Below are positions 16,436 to 46,090 of a DNA stretch of 64,000 nucleotides, piece after piece (positions within the stretch are counted from its first letter, which is position 1; each line of letters opens with the position of its first letter). This DNA is from Escherichia coli phage vB_EcoS_Ace, in the sequence record MT833283.1; one strand, 5' to 3'. A model generated the notes under the pieces. That model did not search any database and was not told where the DNA came from. It saw only the letters and a list, made by a program, of their open reading frames with translations. The position numbers were made by a program, and so were the translations under genes.

Positions 16436-16518
16436 TATTTGTTTTCCTTTTTGTTGATCAATTTATGAGATATATTATACGAAATTTTGAAGCGTTTAGC
16501 AAATGAATTTTTTAAAAA

Positions 16519-23984: not shown

Positions 23985-24746
23985 TTACACCTTCCCCATA
24001 TCCTTAAAGATATCGTAGAATGCTTTAGACTCTGGTGAGCGAACGTTGTCGATCAGTTCGATCATAGAGAAAGGAGAGTTTTCATACTTCTCATAGACTT
24101 CCATAAGAAGTGCTAGACCTGAATCACCCTTGATGTCTTTCTGAGCTATATCTCCACAGATAATTAAACGACAATCTTGTCCTACACGAGTCAAAAGACA
24201 GATCATTGCTTCAACGGAGATATTCTGAGCTTCATCGACAATTACATAGGAGTTGTTGAAAGTTCGGCCACGGGCATGTTCGATAGCCAGGAATTTGATT
24301 TTCTGACGTTCGACATATCCTTTGTAGGCATGATCACCGATTGCCCATTTCATACCATCGGCTATTGGTTCCAACCAAGGCTCTAGCTTTTCTGCTAGAT
24401 CACCTGGGAGCATACCAAGAGATTTACCTAGAGGTTCGTTCGGACGCACGAGGATCACTTGCTCAATATCTGAGTGAATGTCTACGAGTTCCTGAGCTGC
24501 AAGAACGGATGGAATAAAGGTTTTACCAGTACCTGGTTCACCTATACCCACAGTCACTGTGTTGTTCTTGATCATATTGATATATGATTTTTGCTCACGG
24601 TTTTTACCAACTAGGGATTTAGCAACTGGATTGGCGTAATCACCAGAGAAATCTGCTTGAATTACGTTACTCTCGTACTTGTTGCCACGCTTTCTTGAAC
24701 CATTGCGGTTCTCTCTTTTTTGACGTGCTTTTCCCATAAATAACAC
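23985..24746 (-). CDS. phoH: PhoH-like ATPase
   Basis: 253 aa; Walker A GEPGTGKTF, Walker B VIVDEAQN. Confidence 0.85.
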   Translation of the reverse strand: MLFMGKARQKRENRNGSRKRGNKYESNVIQADFSGDYANPVAKSLVGKNREQKSYINMIKNNTVTVGIGEPGTGKTFIPSVLAAQELVDIHSDIEQVILVRPNEPLGKSLGMLPGDLAEKLEPWLEPIADGMKWAIGDHAYKGYVERQKIKFLAIEHARGRTFNNSYVIVDEAQNISVEAMICLLTRVGQDCRLIICGDIAQKDIKGDSGLALLMEVYEKYENSPFSMIELIDNVRSPESKAFYDIFKDMGKV

Positions 24747-25031
24747 TCCTATAGTGTACTTCGCTAACAGAGGATCAACAAAAAGATCTTGTTTATCAAC
24801 TTACAAATATATTATACCAATATATACGGGAGAAAGCAACTACAATTTTAAATAAGCCTATGATATTGCATTTAAATAAAAAATTTGCTTGCTTTTATTG
24901 GGAAATGTATGGTACTAGATAATCATTTTATATCGCGTACACGGGTGCGTGATTATACTATTTTTAGTAGAGGTTGGCAAATAAAATTTTTTGACTCAGA
25001 TCAATTTACAGAATGTTATAGTAAAATATTG

Positions 25032-25060
25032 TTGACATCCGCCTTCGAATGAGTTATAAT
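25032..25060 (+). promoter_or_regulatory. consensus sigma70 promoter (TTGACA-17-TATAAT) upstream of nrdD
   Basis: ttgaca 25032-25037, tataat 25055-25060, then RBS GAGAAGGAGAG before the ATG at 25090. Confidence 0.7.
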
Positions 25061-25089: not shown

Positions 25090-26964
25090 ATGAATCGCAA
25101 TGAAGAACTAAAGTATAAAGGAATGCAGTCCTTGATTCGAAACTGCAAAGAAATTATCGAAGGTTCAGCAGATGAAGAGCTGCTGTTTAATAATGCCAAT
25201 AAGCCCTCAGAACGTTTCCCTACACAAAGGGATATGCTTGCAGGGGAATTGAGTAAATATCTGATTCTGGAAGAAATGCCAATCCAGATTCGAAATGCTC
25301 ACATGATTGGTGATATTCACTTCCATGATGCTGATTACGCTGCATTAGGTATGACTAACTGTTGCCTGGTTGCTTTGGAAGATATGTTGAAAAACGGTAT
25401 GAAGGTTGGTAATGCTGAAATCAGTACGCCAAACTCCATTACTACTGCGGCTGCTATTACAGCTCAGATTATTACTCAGGTTAGCTCCCATCAATATGGT
25501 GGTACTTCTGTAGACCGATTAGATGAAGTACTGGCTCCTTATGTTCGTAAGTCTTATGATAAGAATCATGCGTTTGCAAAACGTTGGACTAAGGATGAAG
25601 CCAAAGCATCTGTAATGGCTACGGAAATGACTGAGAAAGAAGTTTACGATGCCTGTCAGGGCCTGGAGTATGAAATCAATACGATGTTCAACTCTAATGG
25701 TCAAAGTCCGTTTATTACCTTTGGGTTTGGTCTAGGAACTTCTTGGGAAGCACGTCTTGTACAGAAAGCAATCCTAGAAGTGCGTATGGATGGTTTGGGT
25801 ATCAATAAACGTACAGCTATCTTCCCTAAACTGGTATTTGTTTTGCGTGATGGCGTAAACATGAAACCTGGTGATGTTAACTATGATATCAAGAAGTTAG
25901 CTATGAAATGTACTGCTGAACGTATGTATCCTGACTACATCAGTTATGATAAGGTTGTAGAAGTTACGGGAGACTACAAAGTCTCTATGGGCTGTCGTTC
26001 ATTCCTGGCTGCTGCGGAAGATGGTGAAACTTCTGGTCGTAACAACTTAGGCGTTGTTTCCGTAAACCTTCCTCGAATCGCTATCGAAGCGGAAGGAAAT
26101 ATTGATCTATTCTTCGATCTACTTGAGCTGCGTGTGGATACCGCGTTAAAAGCATTGGAGTGGAGGGTTGATCGCTTAAAATACATTCAAGCTAAAGCTG
26201 CGCCCATCCTCTATATGTCAGGAGCCTTTGGATTACGTCTGGGGCCAGATGAATATGTATTTGATCATTTCTACAAGCGTGCTTCCGTATCTCTAGGATA
26301 TATTGGTTGCCACGAAATGTTGCAGCTCATGTTTGGTAAAGATGTAGATACAATGTCTGAGTCTTGTATCAAGTTCGTTCAACGTGTGCTACAATATATG
26401 CGTGATCGTGCTGATCAGAAGAAGGAAGAGACTCAGTTAGGTTATAGTCTGTATGCTACACCATCTGAATCTCTGTGTGATCGCTTCTGTCGTCTAGACC
26501 GTGAGTACTTCCCAGAGCATGAGGATATTCTGGCTAAAGGATATTACACTAACTCCCATCACCTTGATGTAGAACGTAAGGTTGCTCCAAATGTGAAATT
26601 TGATTATGAGTCTAACTTTACTCCTATTGCTTCTGGTGGGTGCATTTCCTACGTGGAATTACCTGACATGAAGAAATTCCCAGATGCCCTAGAATGGGTA
26701 ATTAACTATGCTGCAAGTAAAGTTCACTACTTTGGTATTAATACTCCAGTTGATTCTTGTGGTGAGTGTGGATTCTTAGGCGAAACAATTGCTTCTGAAG
26801 ATGGATTTAAATGCCCAATTTGTGGCAACCATGATCCTGAGACTCTTGAGGTAACACGTCGTGTTTGTGGGTACCTTGGTAATCCAGGTGCACGCCCATT
26901 TAACCCAGGTAAACAGCATGAGGTTATGGGACGAATCAAGCATGCAGATGTAAGAGCTAAATAA
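25090..26964 (+). CDS. nrdD: anaerobic ribonucleoside-triphosphate reductase (class III)
   Basis: 624 aa; glycyl-radical motif RVCGYLG near the C-terminus; Zn-ribbon CGECG...CPICG. Confidence 0.9.
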   Translation: MNRNEELKYKGMQSLIRNCKEIIEGSADEELLFNNANKPSERFPTQRDMLAGELSKYLILEEMPIQIRNAHMIGDIHFHDADYAALGMTNCCLVALEDMLKNGMKVGNAEISTPNSITTAAAITAQIITQVSSHQYGGTSVDRLDEVLAPYVRKSYDKNHAFAKRWTKDEAKASVMATEMTEKEVYDACQGLEYEINTMFNSNGQSPFITFGFGLGTSWEARLVQKAILEVRMDGLGINKRTAIFPKLVFVLRDGVNMKPGDVNYDIKKLAMKCTAERMYPDYISYDKVVEVTGDYKVSMGCRSFLAAAEDGETSGRNNLGVVSVNLPRIAIEAEGNIDLFFDLLELRVDTALKALEWRVDRLKYIQAKAAPILYMSGAFGLRLGPDEYVFDHFYKRASVSLGYIGCHEMLQLMFGKDVDTMSESCIKFVQRVLQYMRDRADQKKEETQLGYSLYATPSESLCDRFCRLDREYFPEHEDILAKGYYTNSHHLDVERKVAPNVKFDYESNFTPIASGGCISYVELPDMKKFPDALEWVINYAASKVHYFGINTPVDSCGECGFLGETIASEDGFKCPICGNHDPETLEVTRRVCGYLGNPGARPFNPGKQHEVMGRIKHADVRAK

Positions 26965-35375: not shown

Positions 35376-35684
35376 ATGAGCGATCAGGTAAATCAAAACT
35401 ATGAAGGACACGTTGACGACCAGTCCATCATGCTTTGGGAGAAGGAGGGAGAACAAGTAAGACTAACCGTATCTGAATTTCGTGGGAATCTATACATGGG
35501 AATTCGTTACTGGCTCCAAGATATTACTGGAGAGTGGTTTCCAACGAAATCCGGCTTCTCTTTTCCTTATACCCTAGAAACTACGTCACAGCTATTCTAC
35601 GCTTTTACGCAAATCCTCAGTGAATCCGAGGTCTTGCATGAAGTACAGAAACGAGCTGAAGAACTCAAAGCCAAGAATGCCTAG
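35376..35684 (+). CDS. hypothetical protein
   Basis: 102 aa ORF. Confidence 0.5.
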   Translation: MSDQVNQNYEGHVDDQSIMLWEKEGEQVRLTVSEFRGNLYMGIRYWLQDITGEWFPTKSGFSFPYTLETTSQLFYAFTQILSESEVLHEVQKRAEELKAKNA

Positions 35685-35751
35685 TTCTTGGCTTTTTCTT
35701 TATAAATGTACTTGCTTTCGACTCAGTTTTCATATATAATATTTATATAAA

Positions 35752-35970
35752 TTGATGAGAGGATCAATTATGGCAATGACAATAACACTTCCAAAGATTC
35801 AAGCAAAACTTAATTTGCTTTCCATAGCAAAGATCAATTATCAGGACAATATTGGCACTCCAAACCAGAAAGCGTACAAAGATGCGTGGTTAAAAGAAGC
35901 TGCTGATTTAGCTGGTATGGCTGCTCAGTATAATAAAGAACTCAAAATGGAAATCGCAGACGATGAATAA
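35752..35970 (+). CDS. hypothetical protein
   Basis: 72 aa ORF after a T5-type promoter/leader (35710-35765). Confidence 0.45.
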   Translation: MMRGSIMAMTITLPKIQAKLNLLSIAKINYQDNIGTPNQKAYKDAWLKEAADLAGMAAQYNKELKMEIADDE

Positions 35971-36934
35971 TGTAAAAGACTTTATCAAACGTTGTCAAGA
36001 AGCGTACTACCAGGGAATGAGTCTTATTTCCGATGAAGAATATGATCGTCTGATTAAAAGATTCCCACTAGAGGAAGAAATCGGACCGAAAGGTGATATT
36101 CCTCACTTGTATCGTATGTATTCTTTGCAGAAAGTCTATTACGGTCGTGGTGATAAAGCTCCATTCAATCCATTAGGTCAGGTTGAAACTGATAAGTTAG
36201 ATGGCTGTGCAATTTCTCTGTTATATATTAATGGTGAATTTGTTCAAGCGTTAACTCGTGGTAACGGTATTCTAGGGAATGATGTAACGCATAATGTTAA
36301 AATGCTAAACATCCCCAAAACTATTTCCCAAAAAGTACCAACTCAAATCACTGGTGAAGTTCTCATTACTAAAGAAGTAGAGAACAAACGTAACTACGCT
36401 TCGGGTGCTATTAACCTGAAAGACAGCGATGATTTCATGCAACGTATTGGTGAAGGTGGTTTAATCTTCGTTGCATATGGTATCCAGTGTTCAGCGGAAA
36501 CAGTCGGTATTACAGAAGCCTATTTAAAAGATATGCTTTGGCTAGAGAATGAGAACTTCTTGACAGTTGTTAATGTTCGTTCCTTCTTTAAGTGGATTCC
36601 GACGGATGGTAAAGTTGTTCGTATTAATGATAACAACAAATTCTTCCGTGAAGGTTGGACTAATAAATTTCCTCGCGGTGCATTTGCTATTAAAGAGGAT
36701 GAAGAAGGCGAAATTACCACACTTGTTAAAGTTGAATGGCAAGTAGGGGCTTCTGGTAAAGTAACTCCAGTTGGTTATTTCGAGCCGGTGATTATTGATG
36801 ATGCCACAATCGTTAAAGCAACTCTTAATAACGTTGATTATATTAACGCTCTCGATTTAGAGATCGGTTGCCAGATTCGAGTGATTCGTGCTGGTGGTGT
36901 AATCCCTTGTATAGTAGAGCGAGTATACGACTAA
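35963..36934 (+). CDS. ligA: NAD-dependent DNA ligase, adenylation/OB part (subunit A of a split ligase)
   Basis: 323 aa; KxDG adenylation motif (TDKLDGCAISLLY), TRGNG motif. Confidence 0.8.
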   Translation: MNNVKDFIKRCQEAYYQGMSLISDEEYDRLIKRFPLEEEIGPKGDIPHLYRMYSLQKVYYGRGDKAPFNPLGQVETDKLDGCAISLLYINGEFVQALTRGNGILGNDVTHNVKMLNIPKTISQKVPTQITGEVLITKEVENKRNYASGAINLKDSDDFMQRIGEGGLIFVAYGIQCSAETVGITEAYLKDMLWLENENFLTVVNVRSFFKWIPTDGKVVRINDNNKFFREGWTNKFPRGAFAIKEDEEGEITTLVKVEWQVGASGKVTPVGYFEPVIIDDATIVKATLNNVDYINALDLEIGCQIRVIRAGGVIPCIVERVYD

Positions 36935-37136
36935 TTCGTAACCCTTTGCTACCCGTTTACCATGTCGGAATTATAAAGTGGTTATTGACATTTTCGCCGC
37001 TTAGGTATATACTATTATCATTCAGTTGAGGGATAGAAAGTTATGGCGAGGGTAAGCAAAGTTAGTTAAAATTGTAGTTGCTAAATGCTTAAATACTTGC
37101 TATAATATTTATATAAATTGATAAGGAAGAAATTTG

Positions 37137-37916
37137 ATGAAAATCGAAATTCCAACACAATGTCCCTCTTGTGGTTCTAAGCTAGATCTTGTCAACGGGC
37201 AATTATTCTGTAGGAATAAGTCCAACTGTCCAGCGCAATCAAGTAAGTTAATCGAGAACTTCTGCACAAAAATGAAGTTAAAGGGCTTTGGCCCGAAAAC
37301 TATTGAGAAGCTGGAGCTGACTAAGATCTCAGAACTGTTTTACCTGACCGAAGAAGATTTGGTAGGAGCTGTGGGTAGCAAGGTTGCCGCTAAGTTGATT
37401 AGCGAGTTAAATACTAAGGTTCGCGGAGACATTGACTTTGGTTCAGTTCTCGGTTCTTTAGGAATTCCTCTTATTGGAGAGGTTGCAGCAAAGAAACTGT
37501 CCCAAAATTGCACTAGCTTCCACGATGTGAAGGCTGACGGCAAGGCTGGAGAAAATTACAAAACCTGGCTAAATTCCCCACAAGGCAAGGATGTTATTGA
37601 ACTACCGTGGAAATTCTCAACTGGTATTCGAGGTGCTAAAGCTGATATCATCATTACAGATGATTTAGTTGCCCAGCCAAATGGAATCACGGTCTGTATT
37701 ACCGGATCTTTGCAAGACTTTGCAAATCGAACGGATGCAACAAACTATTTAGAAAGTCTAGGATATACGGTCAAGAAGTCCGTTACCAAAGACGTCAAAT
37801 ACCTAATCTGTGAGGATGAATCAAAACGTTCTTCCTCATCTTATAAGAAAGCCGAAACGAATGGGATAGAAATCCTGTCGATTAAAGAACTATTGGAGAA
37901 AAATAATAATGTCTAA
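37137..37916 (+). CDS. ligB: NAD-dependent DNA ligase, Zn-finger/HhH/BRCT part (subunit B)
   Basis: CPSCGSKLD...CRNKSNCPAQ zinc finger, HhH-like GFGPKTIEKL, C-terminal BRCT-like region; ATG 37137 with RBS AAGGAAG. Confidence 0.75.
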   Translation: MKIEIPTQCPSCGSKLDLVNGQLFCRNKSNCPAQSSKLIENFCTKMKLKGFGPKTIEKLELTKISELFYLTEEDLVGAVGSKVAAKLISELNTKVRGDIDFGSVLGSLGIPLIGEVAAKKLSQNCTSFHDVKADGKAGENYKTWLNSPQGKDVIELPWKFSTGIRGAKADIIITDDLVAQPNGITVCITGSLQDFANRTDATNYLESLGYTVKKSVTKDVKYLICEDESKRSSSSYKKAETNGIEILSIKELLEKNNNV

Positions 37917-38676
37917 ACTGAACTGGAACGTAGAAGGTGTAACCGAGTCTCTGAAAGCAAAAGCCACTGCTCTGGGTGTTGCTGTAATCTCTCAAGAACA
38001 AGTAGCTGCTATCGCTGCTGAACTGGCTACCGAGACTGGCAAAGACGTTACCGCTCGCTCTGTTGGCTCTAAGCTGCGTAAAGAAGGTTTCGAAGTACAG
38101 AAAGCTAACGAAGTACAGAAATCCCCGTGGACTCCTGAGCAGGAAGCTGAACTAGTTGATTTCCTGAACGCTCATGCTGGTCAGTATACTTACGCTGAAA
38201 TCGCTGCTGCTGTAGCTGGTGGTCAGTTCGGTGCTAAGCAGGTACAGGGTAAGATCCTGAGTCTGGAAATGACCGCTTCTGTTAAGCCAACTGAAAAAGC
38301 TGCTGCTGTTCGTTCCTTCACTCCTGACGAAGAAACTGATTTCGTTAATCAGGTTGTTGCTGGTGCTACTATTGAAGCTATCGCTGCTCACTTCGGTCGC
38401 AATATTAAGCAGATTCGTGGTAAAGCTCTGAGCCTGCTTCGTGAAGGTCGTATCGCTGCTATGCCGGTACAGGAAACTTCAAGTGCTAAAACTCGTGAAG
38501 ATCTGTTAGAAGGTCTGGATCTGGCTAACATGACTGTTGCTGAGATCGCTGAGAAAACTGGTAAGTCTGAGCGCGGTGTTAAATCTATGCTGTCTCGTCG
38601 TGGTCTGGTTGCTAAGGACTATGATGGTGCCGCTAAGCGTGCTAAACTGGATGCAAAAGCTGCGGCTGCTGAATAA
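37909..38676 (+). CDS. Ala-rich protein with repeated HTH-like motifs (abundant early protein candidate)
   Basis: 255 aa; three or four repeats of the pattern AEIAxxxGxxxxxVxxKxLSL; codon usage enriched in ctg/ggt/cgt/gct unlike neighbours. Confidence 0.55.
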   Translation: MSKLNWNVEGVTESLKAKATALGVAVISQEQVAAIAAELATETGKDVTARSVGSKLRKEGFEVQKANEVQKSPWTPEQEAELVDFLNAHAGQYTYAEIAAAVAGGQFGAKQVQGKILSLEMTASVKPTEKAAAVRSFTPDEETDFVNQVVAGATIEAIAAHFGRNIKQIRGKALSLLREGRIAAMPVQETSSAKTREDLLEGLDLANMTVAEIAEKTGKSERGVKSMLSRRGLVAKDYDGAAKRAKLDAKAAAAE

Positions 38677-38692
38677 TCTGGTAAATTAAACC

Positions 38693-38728
38693 TAAGGGGA
38701 GGGGGCTATGCTCCTTCCCCTTTTTGCA
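38693..38728 (+). terminator. rho-independent terminator
   Basis: Hairpin AAGGGGAGG...CCTTCCCCTT followed by TTTTTG. Confidence 0.6.
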
Positions 38729-38758
38729 TTTAGAAGGCACGAAAGCGTGCAAAGGAGA

Positions 38759-40231
38759 ATGACCTTGTTTAACGTGCAAGCTGTAGTGTTGAAGATGCTT
38801 CTCGCTTCTGAACAGAAGCAAGTAGCATTGGAAACATTCTCAAAACTGCATAAAGATCATTTTAATGACGCTTTCTCCTCAATTTACCAAGCCGTCCAGA
38901 ATTATTATAAGAAATATAACGCAATGCCGTCCATTGACGCACTGATGCTTGAGGCCAATAGGAACGCCCGCCTTTCTCAAGCTCTTGTCGTCTTAGCTAA
39001 CACTCAAATTCCAGAAGTGAGCATGGAACAGGCACTTGAAGTCCTAGAAGCTGAATATACGCAGGATCTATTCCTGAAACTTCTAGAAACAGACGTGCTT
39101 CAAGATTTAACAATGCTGGATCAGGGAGAAATTCTCAACCGAGTTGCCTCCCTTCACTTAAAATTAGAAGAGAAAGTAACGAATACTGGAAAGGTATTCA
39201 ACGCAGACACAATGCGTATTTTCCAGAGAGAAGAAGATACCAAACTGAACTTGATCGCTCTTGGTATTTGTAATGAGTTCGACGCTCAAATTGGTTTAGC
39301 TCGCACAGAAACGTTACTGCTTGGTGGTTGGCGTGGTACTGGTAAATCCATTATCTGTTCAAACATACAGGTTCAGCAATATTTGAATGGAGACATTGCT
39401 CCATATTTCTCAATTGAGATGAAAGAGCACGAAGTGTTTAGACGTAATCTGGCTATGTTAGCTGGAGTATCTGCATTAGCAATGCGTAATAACACTCTTG
39501 AAGGTGCTGCTCTGTTGAGATTAGCCAGAACTAGGGCTAGGATGTTTAATGGTGGTGAAGAGCTTTTCGATAACTTCGTTAAGCAATACACTATGGCTAA
39601 AATGAGTGACTTCTATGATATGGAAAGTAAACTCCTTGAAGGCTATGAGCTTCACACTCCTATGATCATCGTTTACGATCCTGAACTGTCTATTACGACG
39701 GTTGATGTAGAATTAAATAAACTAGTTGCTAAGTATGGTGATAAGGTTACTGTAGCTCTTCTAGACTATATTAACCAAACAAGACTTCCAGATTCAAAGA
39801 CCATTGATATGTATGACTGGAAAGAACAGATGGTTGTTAGTTCATCTTTCAAATCTATCTGCCAGAAACATAACGTGGCTGGTGTTGCCCCTTACCAGAT
39901 TGACCAAGATGGTAGAACGCGTATGTCTAAAGGGATTCTTGATTCCGCAGATATGGCTGCTAATCTTAATGCTGCAAAAGCTGATAACGGTCAAGGTGCT
40001 ATTATGTTTGACTTCGTTAAGACTCGTTCCTCTGATAGTGTGAAGTTTATGCCTAAGATGAACTGGGAAACTCTGCGAATGGATAACACTACCAACCTAG
40101 CAATGGAAGATATTGCGCAAATGGAAGCTGAGTTCGTTATTCCTATTGAAAAGGATAAACCAGCTCAACCTAAACGTGCTAAGAAAGACAAAGCTGAAAA
40201 TTCAACAGGTGAACAGGCCAGCGATATATGA
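38759..40231 (+). CDS. DnaB-like replicative helicase
   Basis: Walker A GGWRGTGKSI; start moved to ATG 38759 (RBS AAAGGAGA) because the track's ATG at 38708 lies inside the terminator hairpin. Confidence 0.7.
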   Translation: MTLFNVQAVVLKMLLASEQKQVALETFSKLHKDHFNDAFSSIYQAVQNYYKKYNAMPSIDALMLEANRNARLSQALVVLANTQIPEVSMEQALEVLEAEYTQDLFLKLLETDVLQDLTMLDQGEILNRVASLHLKLEEKVTNTGKVFNADTMRIFQREEDTKLNLIALGICNEFDAQIGLARTETLLLGGWRGTGKSIICSNIQVQQYLNGDIAPYFSIEMKEHEVFRRNLAMLAGVSALAMRNNTLEGAALLRLARTRARMFNGGEELFDNFVKQYTMAKMSDFYDMESKLLEGYELHTPMIIVYDPELSITTVDVELNKLVAKYGDKVTVALLDYINQTRLPDSKTIDMYDWKEQMVVSSSFKSICQKHNVAGVAPYQIDQDGRTRMSKGILDSADMAANLNAAKADNGQGAIMFDFVKTRSSDSVKFMPKMNWETLRMDNTTNLAMEDIAQMEAEFVIPIEKDKPAQPKRAKKDKAENSTGEQASDI

Positions 40232-43748: not shown

Positions 43749-44238
43749 TTTCAAATTGCCCGTATATGCTTTACGGGCATTTGTATCAATTGAGCAGGAA
43801 GGTGATTATTCCGTAATTACAACAAGATATAATAAATATGTGCTAGATAACAGGGAGTTGCCTGGCACATTCTCTCAACGTAGGTTAGCCTTATTTGAGA
43901 AGCGGAAAGAATTACCTTATAAGCTCTATCCTATTCGTGGTAGAATATCAATGTTGTCCCAATTAGTTGGGTCAAAGCGTAGCCAGTTCATAGATTCTGA
44001 TGGAAATCTCATTAACTGGAAGAAAACTACGTTCTACGATGTTATCACGTCTAAAGTTCTGCATTCTGCAAGAATTTATAATGGAAAGTATCAATGCTAT
44101 GTGGCTAAAGTCCCATATCCATTCGTGCTATCCTATGTTCCAGCTTATATAAGCTATATTCTGGTAAATAATAGCCCTGTTATTTATCAAGTCCATCAAG
44201 AGGAGCCTGAAATTCCTAGACTTAGAATAAAATTATGA
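43741..44238 (+). CDS. hypothetical protein
   Basis: 165 aa ORF between the polymerase and helicase genes. Confidence 0.5.
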   Translation: MLDFKLPVYALRAFVSIEQEGDYSVITTRYNKYVLDNRELPGTFSQRRLALFEKRKELPYKLYPIRGRISMLSQLVGSKRSQFIDSDGNLINWKKTTFYDVITSKVLHSARIYNGKYQCYVAKVPYPFVLSYVPAYISYILVNNSPVIYQVHQEEPEIPRLRIKL

Positions 44239-45587
44239 AGGTTGTTATATCTAATAAAGCCTATTTCAAGCCCGATGATGAACTCTGGGATTATTGTAGT
44301 AAACAAACCACTTACCACATCGAGACAATGACTAGTAAATACCCTATTATGTATAAGAATAGTGGTGTTGTTGCTAAAGAGATTAAGTGGATTCCCATTA
44401 CGCGTCTGGATTTGCTAGATGCTAAGGGAGTAAAATACGAATTAGTTGATAAACGCACGTTAGCTCCGGTAAAAATACCAGAACCTCAGTTCAAGCTGCG
44501 TGAAGAAGATCAACTCCCTATATATGAAGAGTGTGATGATACTTGTATTATCAATGGTAAGCCCGGATTTGGTAAAACTATCCTAGCTTTAGCTCTTGCA
44601 TATAAGTTTGGCCAGAAAACTCTGGTAATCTGCACCAACACATCCATACGGGAAATGTGGGCTGCAGAAGTTCGTAAATGGTTTGGATTCGAGCCTGGTA
44701 TTATAGGTTCTGGAAAGTATAATATTGATCCACCAATCGTGGTCAGTAATATACAAACCGTGAATAAACATGCGAATAATCTTTCTAAGGTGTTCGGTAC
44801 TGTTATAGTTGATGAAGTTCACCACTGTGTGGCTACAACTTTCACTAATTTCTTAGAGATCTCGTGTGCTCGCTACAAGATTGGTTTATCGGGTACGTTA
44901 AAACGTAAAGATGGCCTACAAGTTATGTTCAAAGATTTCTTTGGATATAAGATCTTTAGTCCGCCTGTCAATAACACTGTTCCACCCACAATCCATAGGT
45001 ACTCCGTGCCTGTTGAGTTATCAGGAAACCAGAACGTACCGTGGGCATTACGTGCTAACGATGTGTATAACCATCCTGAATATCGAGAGACTATTATAAA
45101 TCTAGCTCATTTATATGTGTCTATGGGGCATAAGGTTCTCTTTGTAAGTGATAGAACAGAACTAATTCAAACAATACTAGAAGCTCTCGCACAACGTGGT
45201 GTTACAACCTATGAGATTATAGGTGCAACTCCTTTGGATGATCGATTGAGAATCCAGAAAGATGTAGCGGAGGGCGGACCTTGTGTACTTGCAGCAGCTC
45301 AGAGTATCTTCTCAGAAGGTATTTCTCTTAACGAGCTATCTTGTTTAATAATGGGGAGTCTCATTAATAATGAATCTCTCATAGAACAGTTAGCAGGCCG
45401 CGTTCAACGTATTGTTGACGGAAAGCTAGATCCGATTGTTGTAGATTTAATTATGAAAGGAGGTACTGGTTTAAGACAGGCTTCTGGACGTATGGCCGTG
45501 TATCGCAATAATGCGTGGAAAACTATTACTATGACTCCGGAGAAAGCAGTACAATTAGCTAAAATTGCATTTGGCAACTGCTCATAA
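44235..45587 (+). CDS. SF2 helicase (DExH-type)
   Basis: 450 aa; Walker A GKPGFGKT, Walker B VDEVHH. Confidence 0.75.
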   Translation: MKVVISNKAYFKPDDELWDYCSKQTTYHIETMTSKYPIMYKNSGVVAKEIKWIPITRLDLLDAKGVKYELVDKRTLAPVKIPEPQFKLREEDQLPIYEECDDTCIINGKPGFGKTILALALAYKFGQKTLVICTNTSIREMWAAEVRKWFGFEPGIIGSGKYNIDPPIVVSNIQTVNKHANNLSKVFGTVIVDEVHHCVATTFTNFLEISCARYKIGLSGTLKRKDGLQVMFKDFFGYKIFSPPVNNTVPPTIHRYSVPVELSGNQNVPWALRANDVYNHPEYRETIINLAHLYVSMGHKVLFVSDRTELIQTILEALAQRGVTTYEIIGATPLDDRLRIQKDVAEGGPCVLAAAQSIFSEGISLNELSCLIMGSLINNESLIEQLAGRVQRIVDGKLDPIVVDLIMKGGTGLRQASGRMAVYRNNAWKTITMTPEKAVQLAKIAFGNCS

Positions 45588-45727
45588 TTATTGTATAATA
45601 TACACATAAATTTGAGAGAGAAAGTTTCGGATTGATAAGAAAGTCCGAAGCAGAAAAATAAAAATTGTACTTGTCAAATCCTCCCGATTTAATGTATAAT
45701 ATATACATAAATTGATGAGAGACAAAA

Positions 45728-46090
45728 ATGAAATTCTTTGATTACGAGAGAATTTACCTCTTAGCTAGAGGAAACTCCGACCTGATTGTCAAGCTATTTA
45801 ATAGAATGCTTGCAGAGCCTGATGCTCACCAGTTACTGGTCGGTTCTTCATTCATCTTGAATGAATCAACTATTGTTGATAACCCTTACAAATTGTCTAA
45901 TAGACAACTGGCAGAATATCTAGGAATTCTAAGTCTACGAAATTATGCCGAATATAAGTTTACAAACGATCCGAGTTTGGACATGCAATATGTCCCCATA
46001 TGGATACCACGTTCTGTAATCGACACTAACCCACTAATTGCAATCAATAAATCGAAGATAATCTTTAAAGAGGAAATAAAATATGGCTAA
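45728..46090 (+). CDS. hypothetical protein
   Basis: 120 aa ORF downstream of T5-type promoters at 45590-45720. Confidence 0.5.
   Translation: MKFFDYERIYLLARGNSDLIVKLFNRMLAEPDAHQLLVGSSFILNESTIVDNPYKLSNRQLAEYLGILSLRNYAEYKFTNDPSLDMQYVPIWIPRSVIDTNPLIAINKSKIIFKEEIKYG

What the first reader, a model, noticed from the sequence alone, without database searches (positions are those of the whole stretch)
35963..37916. NAD-dependent DNA ligase encoded as two ORFs separated by a promoter-bearing spacer
The adenylation/OB portion (35963-36934) and the Zn-finger/HhH/BRCT portion (37137-37916) are separate ORFs about 200 nt apart. The spacer contains promoter-like TTGACA-17-TATACT and a T5-type promoter plus RBS. 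My recollection is that a split NAD-ligase is a T5-lineage trait, but the spacer with its own promoters implies independent expression of the second half.
Basis: partly seen in the sequence, partly recalled or inferred. Interest (0 to 1): 0.4.

Follow-up and report, generated by a model that had tools for sequence, protein, structure and literature searches.

The report
Two-piece NAD ligase of T5-like phage
This T5-like phage encodes its NAD-dependent DNA ligase as two separate genes cut exactly between two protein domains, with promoters in the gap; the arrangement is real and very old in this phage family, but it is already annotated and a related two-chain enzyme has a solved structure, so it is ordinary.

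Summary
The window is a T5-like phage, 99.9% identical to Escherichia phage GreteKellenberger. ORF 35963-36934 (323 aa) holds LigA domain Ia, the adenylation domain and the OB fold. ORF 37137-37916 (259 aa) holds the Cys4 zinc finger, HhH and BRCT domains. The cut falls at the OB/Zn linker (E. coli LigA ~393/400) and no residues are lost. The 202-nt spacer has stops in all frames, no Rfam match, and two sigma-70 promoters plus an SD.

This is not an error, intron or intein:
- Hundreds of phage records annotate "ligase subunit A/B".
- The 120 best homologues of subunit A are all 310-337 aa.
- 52 divergent loci all keep the split.
- PDB 9HU3/9I5I holds a homologous two-chain ligase from a Providencia phage.

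Small additions from this work:
- A promoter directly upstream of ligB recurs in 33 of 35 non-redundant relatives.
- The spacer is better conserved than either gene.
- The same -10/leader cassette precedes the ligA unit.
- In relatives the gap hosts a GIY-YIG endonuclease, NADAR or DprA-like genes.

There is no terminator after ligA here, so ligB is probably also on read-through transcripts. Expression was not measured. Verdict: already known, low interest.

The parts
35667..35695 (+). Intrinsic-terminator-like hairpin plus T-run that closes the upstream transcription unit
   Evidence: 12-pair stem followed by TTCTTT.
35712..35769 (+). T5-type early promoter cassette ahead of the orf66-ligA unit. 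-35 TTGCTT at 35712-35717, -10 TATAAT at 35735-35740, leader ATTTATATAAATTGATGAGAGGA. The -10/leader block is identical to that of P2.
   Evidence: Read. The 22-nt block TATAATATTTATATAAATTGAT occurs exactly twice in the 64 kb, at 35735 and 37101. In T5 the copy lies 31 nt before the ligA ATG.
35770..35970 (+). Small ORF (66 aa, phrog_8267, function unknown) whose end overlaps the ligA start. It is variable among relatives.
   Evidence: Only about 6% identity in T5 at this position.
35963..36934 (+). Ligase subunit A: domain Ia, nucleotidyltransferase (K78 in KLDG) and OB fold.
   Evidence: Pfam. PDB 9hu3_A at 1.8e-106, and K78 aligns with E. coli LigA K115. phrog_3359 full length. TIGR00575 positions 63-378.
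36935..37136 (+). Non-coding 202-nt spacer. Its length is fixed in 27 of 28 close relatives and it is 97% identical to T5, against 88% for ligA and 94% for ligB.
   Evidence: No Rfam match at E<=1.
36985..37013 (+). Promoter P1, TTGACA-17-TATACT. Predicted start near 37020.
   Evidence: Conserved with its -10 end 116-133 nt before the ligB ATG in enterobacterial, Proteus, Providencia and Vibrio members.
37053..37091 (+). Imperfect inverted repeat (TAAGCA/TGCTTA and TTAGT/GCTAA). Its loop is the A-tract and its 3' arm overlaps the -35 of P2. It is weak here (-7.3 kcal/mol).
   Evidence: A comparable stem recurs in relatives more often than in shuffles, and in distant relatives it is followed by a T-run.
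37078..37106 (+). Promoter P2, a T5-type early promoter: TTGCTA-17-TATAAT with extended -10 TG at 37098-37099. Predicted start near 37113.
   Evidence: An equivalent promoter with its -10 end 22-41 nt before the ATG is present in 33 of 35 non-redundant relatives.
37123..37129 (+). Shine-Dalgarno AAGGAAG, 7 nt before the ligB ATG.
   Evidence: Read.
37137..37916 (+). Ligase subunit B: Cys4 zinc finger (C9, C12, C25, C31), HhH domain and BRCT domain.
   Evidence: PDB 9hu3_B at 1.1e-79 and 2owo residues 402-529 and 585-666. Pfam BRCT. phrog_3498. TIGR00575 positions 388-651.
37909..38676 (+). D5-like DNA-binding protein / transcription regulator. Its start overlaps the ligB stop by 8 nt, so it is probably in the same P1/P2 unit.
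   Evidence: The ligB-D5 adjacency is kept in all annotated relatives.
38694..38722 (+). Strong intrinsic-terminator-like hairpin that closes the ligB-D5 unit.
   Evidence: 13-pair stem with 8 GC pairs, followed by TTTTGC.

Best explanation
The locus encodes the two-subunit NAD+-dependent DNA ligase typical of T5-like phages (family Demerecviridae).

Subunit A (35963-36934) carries the NMN-binding domain Ia, the nucleotidyltransferase domain with the adenylated lysine (K78, KLDG), and the OB fold. Subunit B (37137-37916) carries the Cys4 zinc finger, the helix-hairpin-helix DNA-binding domain and the BRCT domain. Together they supply every domain of bacterial LigA. The cut is exactly in the OB/Zn linker. 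The two polypeptides are inferred to assemble non-covalently into the C-shaped clamp that LigA forms around nicked DNA, and to seal nicks and Okazaki fragments during phage replication.

The 202-nt gap is a regulatory intergenic region, not an intron, intein or bypass element. It carries two tandem sigma-70 promoters (P1 and P2) and an SD, which start a ligB-D5 transcription unit ending at the terminator at 38694-38722. The ligA unit is preceded by a copy of the same -10/leader cassette. Both halves are therefore predicted to be early genes under the same kind of control. ligB additionally receives read-through from ligA and input from P1.

Shown by sequence and homology: the domain content, the split point, the conservation of the split and of the promoters, and the existence of a solved two-chain homologue. 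Inferred: promoter activity, transcript structure, subunit stoichiometry, and assembly in this particular phage.
For: Identity of the window and annotation:
- The window is 99.9% identical to Escherichia phage GreteKellenberger. [quoted passage not shown]
- T5 ligA and ligB (AAU05253, AAU05254) are cited in PMC3632103. The A and B subunits are cited in PMC4319617.

Domain content and split point:
- Pfam finds aden plus OB in A and BRCT plus HhH in B.
- A residues 78-136 align with E. coli LigA 115-177 (motifs I-III). A 214-320 aligns with LigA 284-390. B 3-122 aligns with LigA 402-529, and B 169-253 with LigA 585-666.
- TIGR00575 positions 63-378 (A) and 388-651 (B) abut. On the full-length phage ligase family phrog_3869, A covers 9-381 and B covers 388-654. 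The separate half-length families phrog_3359 and phrog_3498 also exist.

Solved homologue:
- PDB 9HU3/9I5I has chain A (339 aa, E=1.8e-106) and chain B (248 aa, E=1.1e-79). Chain B is 100% identical to Providencia phages PR1 and PSTCR5.

Conservation of the split:
- The 120 best homologues of A, down to 47% identity, are all 310-337 aa apart from one entry labelled partial (240 aa).
- 52 divergent IMG/VR loci all have ligA followed by ligB on the same strand.
- Substitutions in both halves are concentrated at third codon positions: 124 of 175 variable columns in ligA and 101 of 203 in ligB.

Promoters:
- P1 and P2 were found by the scan.
- The module is conserved with fixed geometry from T5 to Vibrio phages.
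- A ligB-proximal promoter is present in 33 of 35 non-redundant relatives.
- The spacer is 97% identical to T5, against 88% and 94% for the flanking genes.
- The identical 22-nt -10/leader block precedes the ligA unit.
- The sequence just after the -10 resembles the ATATT motif reported for T5 early promoters (PMC7472727).
Against: - No transcript, start-site or protein data for this locus were found, so promoter use is only predicted.
- There is no terminator between ligA and ligB in this phage, so 'independent' expression is at most partial.
- The paper behind 9HU3/9I5I was not found in the library. The activity and interface of the heterodimer are therefore taken from the existence of the two-chain entry, not from read data.
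- The Pfam HhH match in B is below the gathering score (21.6 against 27 bits).
- The middle of the adenylation domain (A residues 139-212) is shorter than in bacterial LigA and aligns poorly.
Confidence: 0.88

Rival explanations
1. The two ORFs are a sequencing or assembly error, or a recent pseudogene: a single ligA broken by a frameshift or nonsense mutation.
For: The two ORFs lie in different frames and together add up to one LigA. This is what a broken gene would also look like at first sight.
Against: - The gap is 202 nt of non-coding, AT-rich sequence with 16 stops across the three frames, and no LigA residues are missing that it could encode.
- ligB has its own SD and ATG.
- The same arrangement is in 429 independent records and in all 52 divergent loci.
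- All 120 closest homologues of A are half-length.
- Both halves show mainly third-position variation.
- A homologous pair was solved as two chains.
Confidence: 0.01
2. The spacer is removed or skipped so that a single polypeptide is made. Candidates are a group I or II intron, an intein, or a T4 gene-60-type translational bypass.
For: Interrupted genes of these kinds occur in phage replication genes (PMC2988022). The P1 leader at 37020-37160 folds well on its own, at -32 kcal/mol with z=-4.1.
Against: - No Rfam family matches the region at E<=1.
- RNAalifold finds no consensus structure in ten orthologous spacers, and the single-sequence z-scores are unremarkable in most of them.
- The gap length varies from 50 to 1359 nt and can hold whole unrelated genes.
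- No intein-like sequence is present, since A and B abut on the LigA profile.
- The gap's conserved features are promoter hexamers, an SD and an ATG.
- The PDB homologue has two separate chains.
Confidence: 0.02
3. The P1/P2 module exists mainly to drive the abundant D5 DNA-binding protein. Subunit B, made in excess over A, has a role of its own, for example binding nicks or recruiting partners through BRCT, in addition to or instead of completing the ligase.
For: - ligB overlaps D5, and ligB-D5 adjacency is conserved throughout the family.
- ligB has two promoters plus read-through, whereas ligA has one.
- The unit ends at a strong terminator after D5.
Against: - There are no expression data.
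- A and B co-occur in every genome examined, and a homologous pair is deposited together in one PDB entry, which fits an obligate complex.
- In bacterial LigA the Zn and HhH domains are needed for nick sealing (established knowledge of LigA, not tested here).
Confidence: 0.12
4. On origin: the split was created by insertion of a mobile element at the domain boundary. Candidates are a free-standing homing endonuclease gene or a promoter/terminator cassette. The present spacer would be what remains.
For: - The part of the gap upstream of P1 holds a GIY-YIG endonuclease gene in Salmonella phage SP3 and one other phage.
- It holds a NADAR gene in Proteus phage Stubb.
- It holds DprA-like and small ORFs in Vibrio and Proteus phages.
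- The -10/leader cassette is repeated in the genome.
- Endonuclease-associated split genes, and a split gene 43 with an untranslated intercistronic sequence, are documented in T4-like phages (PMC2988022).
Against: - The endonuclease is in only 2 phages out of about 437 records and sits in an already split gene, so it may be a later visitor.
- The most distant relatives have short gaps of 50-137 nt containing only a promoter.
- No unsplit close relative was found that would date the event.
Confidence: 0.3

Closest known systems
Bacteriophage T5 NAD-dependent DNA ligase subunits A and B (ligA AAU05253, ligB AAU05254), and the same pair annotated in hundreds of Tequintavirus and Epseptimavirus genomes
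   Same: Same two genes in the same order and with the same neighbours (D5, then helicase and primase). The spacer is also 202 nt and differs from the T5 spacer at 5 positions. The proteins are about 95-97% identical.
   Different: Nothing essential differs. This phage has a 66-aa ORF between the upstream promoter cassette and ligA, whereas in T5 the cassette sits directly before ligA.
Two-chain NAD+ ligase of Providencia phage vB_PreS_PR1 / PSTCR5, PDB 9HU3 and 9I5I
   Same: Chain A (339 aa) aligns end to end with the window's subunit A at E=1.8e-106. Chain B (248 aa) aligns with subunit B at E=1.1e-79. The split point is the same.
   Different: Only about 54-55% identical to the window's proteins. 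Its spacer is 192 nt but has the same P1/P2 layout. The associated publication was not found, so its biochemistry was not read.
Bacterial LigA (E. coli, PDB 2OWO; Thermus filiformis 1V9P)
   Same: All domains and the key motifs are present: the domain Ia SDxEYDRL motif, KxDG, OB fold, Cys4 zinc finger, HhH and BRCT.
   Different: LigA is a single polypeptide of 671 aa. The phage enzyme is cut at LigA ~393/400, and its adenylation domain is about 30 residues shorter.
'Genes in pieces' of T4-like phages: Aeh1 nrdA split by mobE, gene 43 split into 43A/43B by an untranslated intercistronic sequence or a seg endonuclease, and T4 topoisomerase genes 39/60 (PMC2988022)
   Same: An essential replication enzyme is encoded as two polypeptides that reassemble. 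The gap is either an untranslated intercistronic sequence or hosts a homing endonuclease in some relatives.
   Different: The ligase split is fixed across a whole phage family rather than being sporadic, and in this window the gap holds no endonuclease.

Membership tests
NAD+-dependent DNA ligase (LigA) | Nucleotidyltransferase domain with the motif I lysine (KxDG) | tested here: met
   K78-L-D-G aligns with E. coli K115. Pfam PF01653 at 2.2e-23.
NAD+-dependent DNA ligase (LigA) | N-terminal domain Ia with the NMN-binding residues that confer NAD+ specificity | tested here: inconclusive
   A residues 21-34 (LISDEEYDRLIKRF) align with E. coli 29-42 (IPDAEYDRLMREL), but that stretch scores weakly on its own. 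The roles of the residues come from established LigA literature and were not tested here.
NAD+-dependent DNA ligase (LigA) | OB-fold domain following the NTase domain | tested here: met
   PF03120 at 9.4e-22. A 214-320 aligns with LigA 284-390.
NAD+-dependent DNA ligase (LigA) | Cys4 zinc finger, HhH domain and C-terminal BRCT domain | tested here: met
   B C9, C12, C25 and C31 align with the LigA Cys4 region, and B 3-122 and 169-253 align with LigA 402-529 and 585-666. BRCT scores 35.6 bits against a cut-off of 21.3. HhH is below its cut-off.
NAD+-dependent DNA ligase (LigA) | All domains on one polypeptide of about 650-700 aa | tested here: not met
   There are two ORFs of 323 and 259 aa separated by 202 nt with stops in all frames. 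Neither half reaches the TIGR00575 whole-protein cut-off: 173 and 107 bits against 444.
Two-subunit ligase of T5-like phages (Demerecviridae LigA/LigB; PDB 9HU3) | Subunit A of about 310-340 aa (Ia-NTase-OB) and subunit B of about 245-260 aa (Zn-HhH-BRCT), homologous end to end | tested here: met
   9hu3_A covers 4-323 at 1.8e-106 and 9hu3_B covers 1-255 at 1.1e-79. phrog_3359 and phrog_3498 match over their full length.
Two-subunit ligase of T5-like phages (Demerecviridae LigA/LigB; PDB 9HU3) | Gene order ligA, gap, ligB, D5, helicase on one strand within the early replication cluster | tested here: met
   The same order is found in IME260, PM135, D239, Ceto, My1, JSF12 and VspSw_1.
Two-subunit ligase of T5-like phages (Demerecviridae LigA/LigB; PDB 9HU3) | The two polypeptides associate and ligate nicked DNA with NAD+ | not testable with these tools
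   Inferred only from the co-deposited chains in 9HU3/9I5I. No biochemical paper was found.
Intron-, intein- or bypass-interrupted gene | A conserved self-splicing RNA structure, an intein domain, or take-off and landing codons that restore one polypeptide | tested here: not met
   No Rfam match. No consensus structure. A and B abut on the LigA profile, leaving no room for an intein. The gap length varies from 50 to 1359 nt.
Homing-endonuclease-split gene ('genes in pieces') | A homing endonuclease ORF between the two halves | tested here: not met
   The window's spacer contains no ORF. A GIY-YIG ORF is present at this site only in Salmonella phage SP3 and one other phage.

The most novel reading that the evidence does not exclude
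The stem-loop, promoter, leader and SD unit upstream of ligB may be a family-wide terminator/promoter cassette. It resembles the mobile promoter-early stem-loop cassettes recalled for T4-type phages; that resemblance is from memory and was not checked. Insertion of such a cassette at the OB/Zn linker would have created the split. It would now uncouple a ligB-D5 unit from ligA, so that subunit B is made in excess and has a separate nick-binding or recruiting role. That would be relevant to the naturally nicked T5 genome.
Probability: 0.08. Interest if true: 0.45.

Novelty: already known. Interest (0 to 1): 0.15.

Why it matters
It matters little beyond good annotation. The two ORFs should be called ligase subunits A and B, not a broken ligA.

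The locus is a clean natural example of an essential multidomain enzyme cut at a domain linker and kept that way across a whole phage family. That makes it useful as a textbook case and for split-enzyme engineering, but it is already recognised.

The extra observations made here are descriptive refinements that could guide a transcription study of T5-like early genes. They are the deeply conserved ligB promoter, the duplicated promoter/leader cassette in front of both halves, and the gap acting as a landing site for accessory genes.

Tried and rejected
- **Rfam scan** of 36700-37400 at E<=1 gave no match. An intron or known RNA element is rejected.
- **P1 leader structure.** In this phage the leader pairs GUUAUGGCGAG with the P2 -10 region at -32 kcal/mol, z=-4.1. 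RNAalifold on ten orthologues gave no consensus pairs, and the single-sequence z-scores range from -4.6 to -0.07. It is not accepted as a conserved RNA.
- **Mini-ORF** of 7 codons in the spacer (ATG 37044, MARVSKVS). It is not conserved in Klebsiella, Proteus or Vibrio relatives and is rejected.
- **ORF 36868-37029** (53 aa, TTG start, overlapping the ligA end). It has no support and is treated as spurious.
- **Promoter scan statistics.** The tool's count for the 3.5-kb region is not above its shuffle expectation (6 found against 6.9 expected). The case for P1 and P2 therefore rests on their high scores, their placement and their conservation, not on that count.
- **Literature.** Searches for the 9HU3/9I5I paper and for T5 transcription-start data at this locus found nothing usable. 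The supplement of PMC7472727 holds no promoter sequences.
- **Inverted repeat at the P2 -35 as a protein operator.** This idea was considered, with D5 in mind because it has sigma region 4-like HTH matches. It was not pursued. The arms differ in sequence between lineages while staying complementary, which fits a hairpin better than a conserved protein site.
Full report
**What is in the sequence.** A TTG lies one codon upstream of the second ORF's ATG, at 37134. They are separated by 202 nt (36935-37136). The spacer is 32% GC and carries 5, 5 and 6 stop codons in the three frames. The second ORF is in a different frame from the first. The spacer holds TTGACA-17-TATACT at 36985-37013 and TTGCTA-17-TATAAT with an extended -10 TG at 37078-37106. 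An AAGGAAG Shine-Dalgarno lies 7 nt before the ATG at 37137. Only 13 promoter-like sites of this quality lie on the + strand of the whole 64-kb window, and two of them are in these 202 nt.

**Identity of the window.** The region is 99.9% identical to Escherichia phage GreteKellenberger (Epseptimavirus, Demerecviridae) and to Salmonella phages EH2, EH4 and EH5. It matches 456 phage records, 429 of them over at least 80% of the query. [quoted passage not shown]

**Domain content and split point.**
- The first ORF has the NAD-ligase adenylation and OB domains. The second has BRCT and a sub-threshold HhH match.
- Against E. coli LigA (2OWO), A residue K78 (KLDG) aligns with K115, A 21-34 with the domain Ia segment 29-42, and A 214-320 with 284-390.
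- B 3-122 aligns with LigA 402-529, including the four zinc-finger cysteines, and B 169-253 aligns with 585-666.
- On the NCBIfam LigA profile, A covers positions 63-378 and B covers 388-651.
- On the full-length phage ligase family phrog_3869, A covers 9-381 and B covers 388-654. PHROGs also has separate half-length families, phrog_3359 and phrog_3498.

The cut is therefore in the OB/Zn linker, and nothing is missing that the spacer would have to encode.

**Already known and already solved.**
- T5 ligA and ligB are cited as AAU05253 and AAU05254 in PMC3632103. The A and B subunits are discussed for phage Stitch in PMC4319617.
- PDB entries 9HU3 and 9I5I contain a 339-aa 'DNA ligase (NAD(+))' chain and a 248-aa 'DNA ligase subunit B' chain. 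They match the window's proteins end to end, at 1.8e-106 and 1.1e-79.
- Chain B is 100% identical to Providencia phages vB_PreS_PR1 and PSTCR5.
- I could not find the associated paper in the library.

**How old and how general the split is.**
- Every Demerecviridae genome I opened has ligA and ligB as separate genes on one strand, followed by D5 and the helicase. These were Klebsiella IME260, Proteus PM135, Vibrio D239, Ceto, JSF12 and VspSw_1, and Pectobacterium My1.
- A phiKZ-like phage used as an outgroup has a single 680-aa ligase.
- The 120 best database homologues of subunit A, down to 47% identity, are all 310-337 aa, apart from one entry labelled partial (240 aa).
- 52 divergent IMG/VR loci, with ligB down to about 38% identity, all keep the split. 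Their gaps range from 50 to 1359 nt.
- Variation in both halves among close relatives is concentrated at third codon positions, so both are under purifying selection.

This excludes a sequencing error or pseudogene. Together with the lack of any Rfam match and of any consensus RNA structure, it also excludes an intron, intein or bypass element.

**The spacer as a regulatory region.**
- In 27 of 28 close relatives the spacer is exactly 202 nt. Only 17 of its 202 columns vary, against 175 of 600 and 203 of 600 in the adjacent coding sequence.
- Against T5 the spacer is 97.5% identical, compared with 88% for ligA and 94% for ligB.
- The tandem layout has fixed geometry. The P1 -10 ends 116-133 nt before the ligB ATG, and the P2 -10 ends about 30 nt before it. 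This is kept from T5 to Klebsiella, Pectobacterium, Providencia, Proteus and Vibrio phages.
- More distant environmental relatives have short gaps with a single promoter. Overall, 33 of 35 non-redundant loci carry TTGnnn-17-TATAAT ending 22-41 nt before the ATG, usually preceded by an A-tract.
- No terminator is predicted in the window's spacer. The next one lies after D5, at 38694-38722. ligB overlaps the D5 start by 8 nt.

The predicted unit is therefore P1/P2, ligB, D5, terminator, with additional read-through from ligA.

**Co-ordination with ligA.** After the terminator at 35667-35695 lies another T5-type promoter, with TTGCTT at 35712-35717 and TATAAT at 35735-35740 (read). Its -10 and leader block, TATAATATTTATATAAATTGAT, is identical to that of P2. 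It occurs nowhere else in the window as an exact copy. It is followed 29 nt later by the ATG of a 66-aa ORF that overlaps the ligA start. In T5 the copy sits 31 nt before ligA itself. Both halves therefore sit behind the same kind of early-promoter cassette. The sequence just after the -10 resembles the ATATT motif reported for T5 early promoters (PMC7472727). All of this is prediction, because no start-site data for the locus were found.

**The gap as a landing site.** The part of the gap upstream of P1 is variable.
- Salmonella phage SP3, and one other record out of about 437, carry a 218-aa GIY-YIG endonuclease ORF there. It replaces the first 24 nt of the spacer and leaves P1 and P2 intact.
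- Proteus phage Stubb carries a NADAR-domain gene there.
- Vibrio phage Ceto carries a small ORF plus a gene annotated DprA-like there. JSF12 has two unnamed ORFs at the same place.
- PM135, D239 and VspSw_1 carry small ORFs.

This resembles the 'split gene' cases reviewed for T4-like phages: nrdA/mobE, gene 43A/43B with an untranslated intercistronic sequence, and genes 39/60 (PMC2988022). It makes an origin by insertion plausible but unproven.

**A weak extra feature.** An inverted repeat has the A-tract as its loop and a 3' arm that overlaps the -35 of the ligB promoter. It recurs in relatives with different arm sequences. In 34 loci its score exceeds shuffled controls (Wilcoxon p=3e-5), although the loci are not fully independent and the search was fitted to the model. 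In distant relatives the stem is followed by a T-run, which is terminator-like. In this window it is weak (37053-37091, -7.3 kcal/mol) and has no T-run.

**Verdict.** The feature is the well-known two-subunit NAD+ ligase of T5-like phages, with a solved homologue. What is added here is descriptive. Interest is low.

Noticed in passing
window 35712-35769 and 37078-37136: The 22-nt -10/leader block TATAATATTTATATAAATTGAT occurs exactly twice in the 64 kb. One copy precedes the orf66-ligA unit and the other precedes ligB. The distance from the -10 to the ATG is nearly the same in both (29 and 30 nt). T5 has the first copy 31 nt before ligA.
   Followed up: yes
L031 1184-1840 (Salmonella phage SP3): A 218-aa GIY-YIG homing-endonuclease-like ORF is inserted directly after ligA, upstream of an intact P1/P2. 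It is present in only two phages among about 437 matching records.
   Followed up: yes
L037 1153-1809 (Proteus phage Stubb); L004 3469-4448 (Vibrio phage Ceto); L041 1571-2403 (Vibrio phage JSF12): Accessory genes sit in the ligA-ligB gap of relatives. Stubb has a NADAR-domain protein (1.8e-31). Ceto has a small ORF plus a gene annotated DprA-like (Pfam match only 0.0016, below cut-off). JSF12 has two unnamed ORFs at the same place.
   Followed up: partly
window 37053-37091, and the equivalent position in 34 loci: An inverted repeat has the A-tract as its loop and a 3' arm overlapping the -35 of the ligB promoter. The arms differ between lineages but stay complementary. In distant relatives a T-run follows, giving an overlapping terminator and promoter. 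The statistics are suggestive only.
   Followed up: partly
window 37020-37160: The predicted P1 leader folds at -32 kcal/mol (z=-4.1), pairing GUUAUGGCGAG with the P2 -10 region. The structure is not conserved in orthologues.
   Followed up: yes
window 45571-45599 and 45671-45700 (+): A second pair of tandem T5-type promoters lies 100 nt apart, in the gap between the helicase ORF (44235-45587) and a 120-aa ORF (45728-46090). The window differs from GreteKellenberger here, where a 'putative homing endonuclease' is annotated.
   Followed up: partly
window 24952-25060: A divergent promoter pair lies between a minus-strand ORF (23985-24746, probably the PhoH-like gene annotated upstream of nrdD in GreteKellenberger) and the plus-strand nrdD gene (25090-26964). 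It includes a perfect consensus TTGACA-17-TATAAT at 25032-25060. The window has about 444 nt more than GreteKellenberger somewhere between nrdD and ligA.
   Followed up: partly
window 16474-16502 (-): A promoter, TTGCTAAACGCTTCAAAATTTCGTATAAT followed by ATATCTCATAAATTGAT, closely resembles my recollection of the classic T5 early promoter PH207. This is from memory and was not checked against a source.
   Followed up: no
window 38694-38722 against ORF 38708-40231: The annotated start of the DnaB-like helicase lies inside the strong terminator hairpin after D5. The true start is probably further downstream.
   Followed up: no
window 37909-38676: The D5-like protein gives several weak helix-turn-helix matches. 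One is to sigma-70 region 4 (PF08281, 7.8e-07), the region that recognises -35 elements.
   Followed up: no
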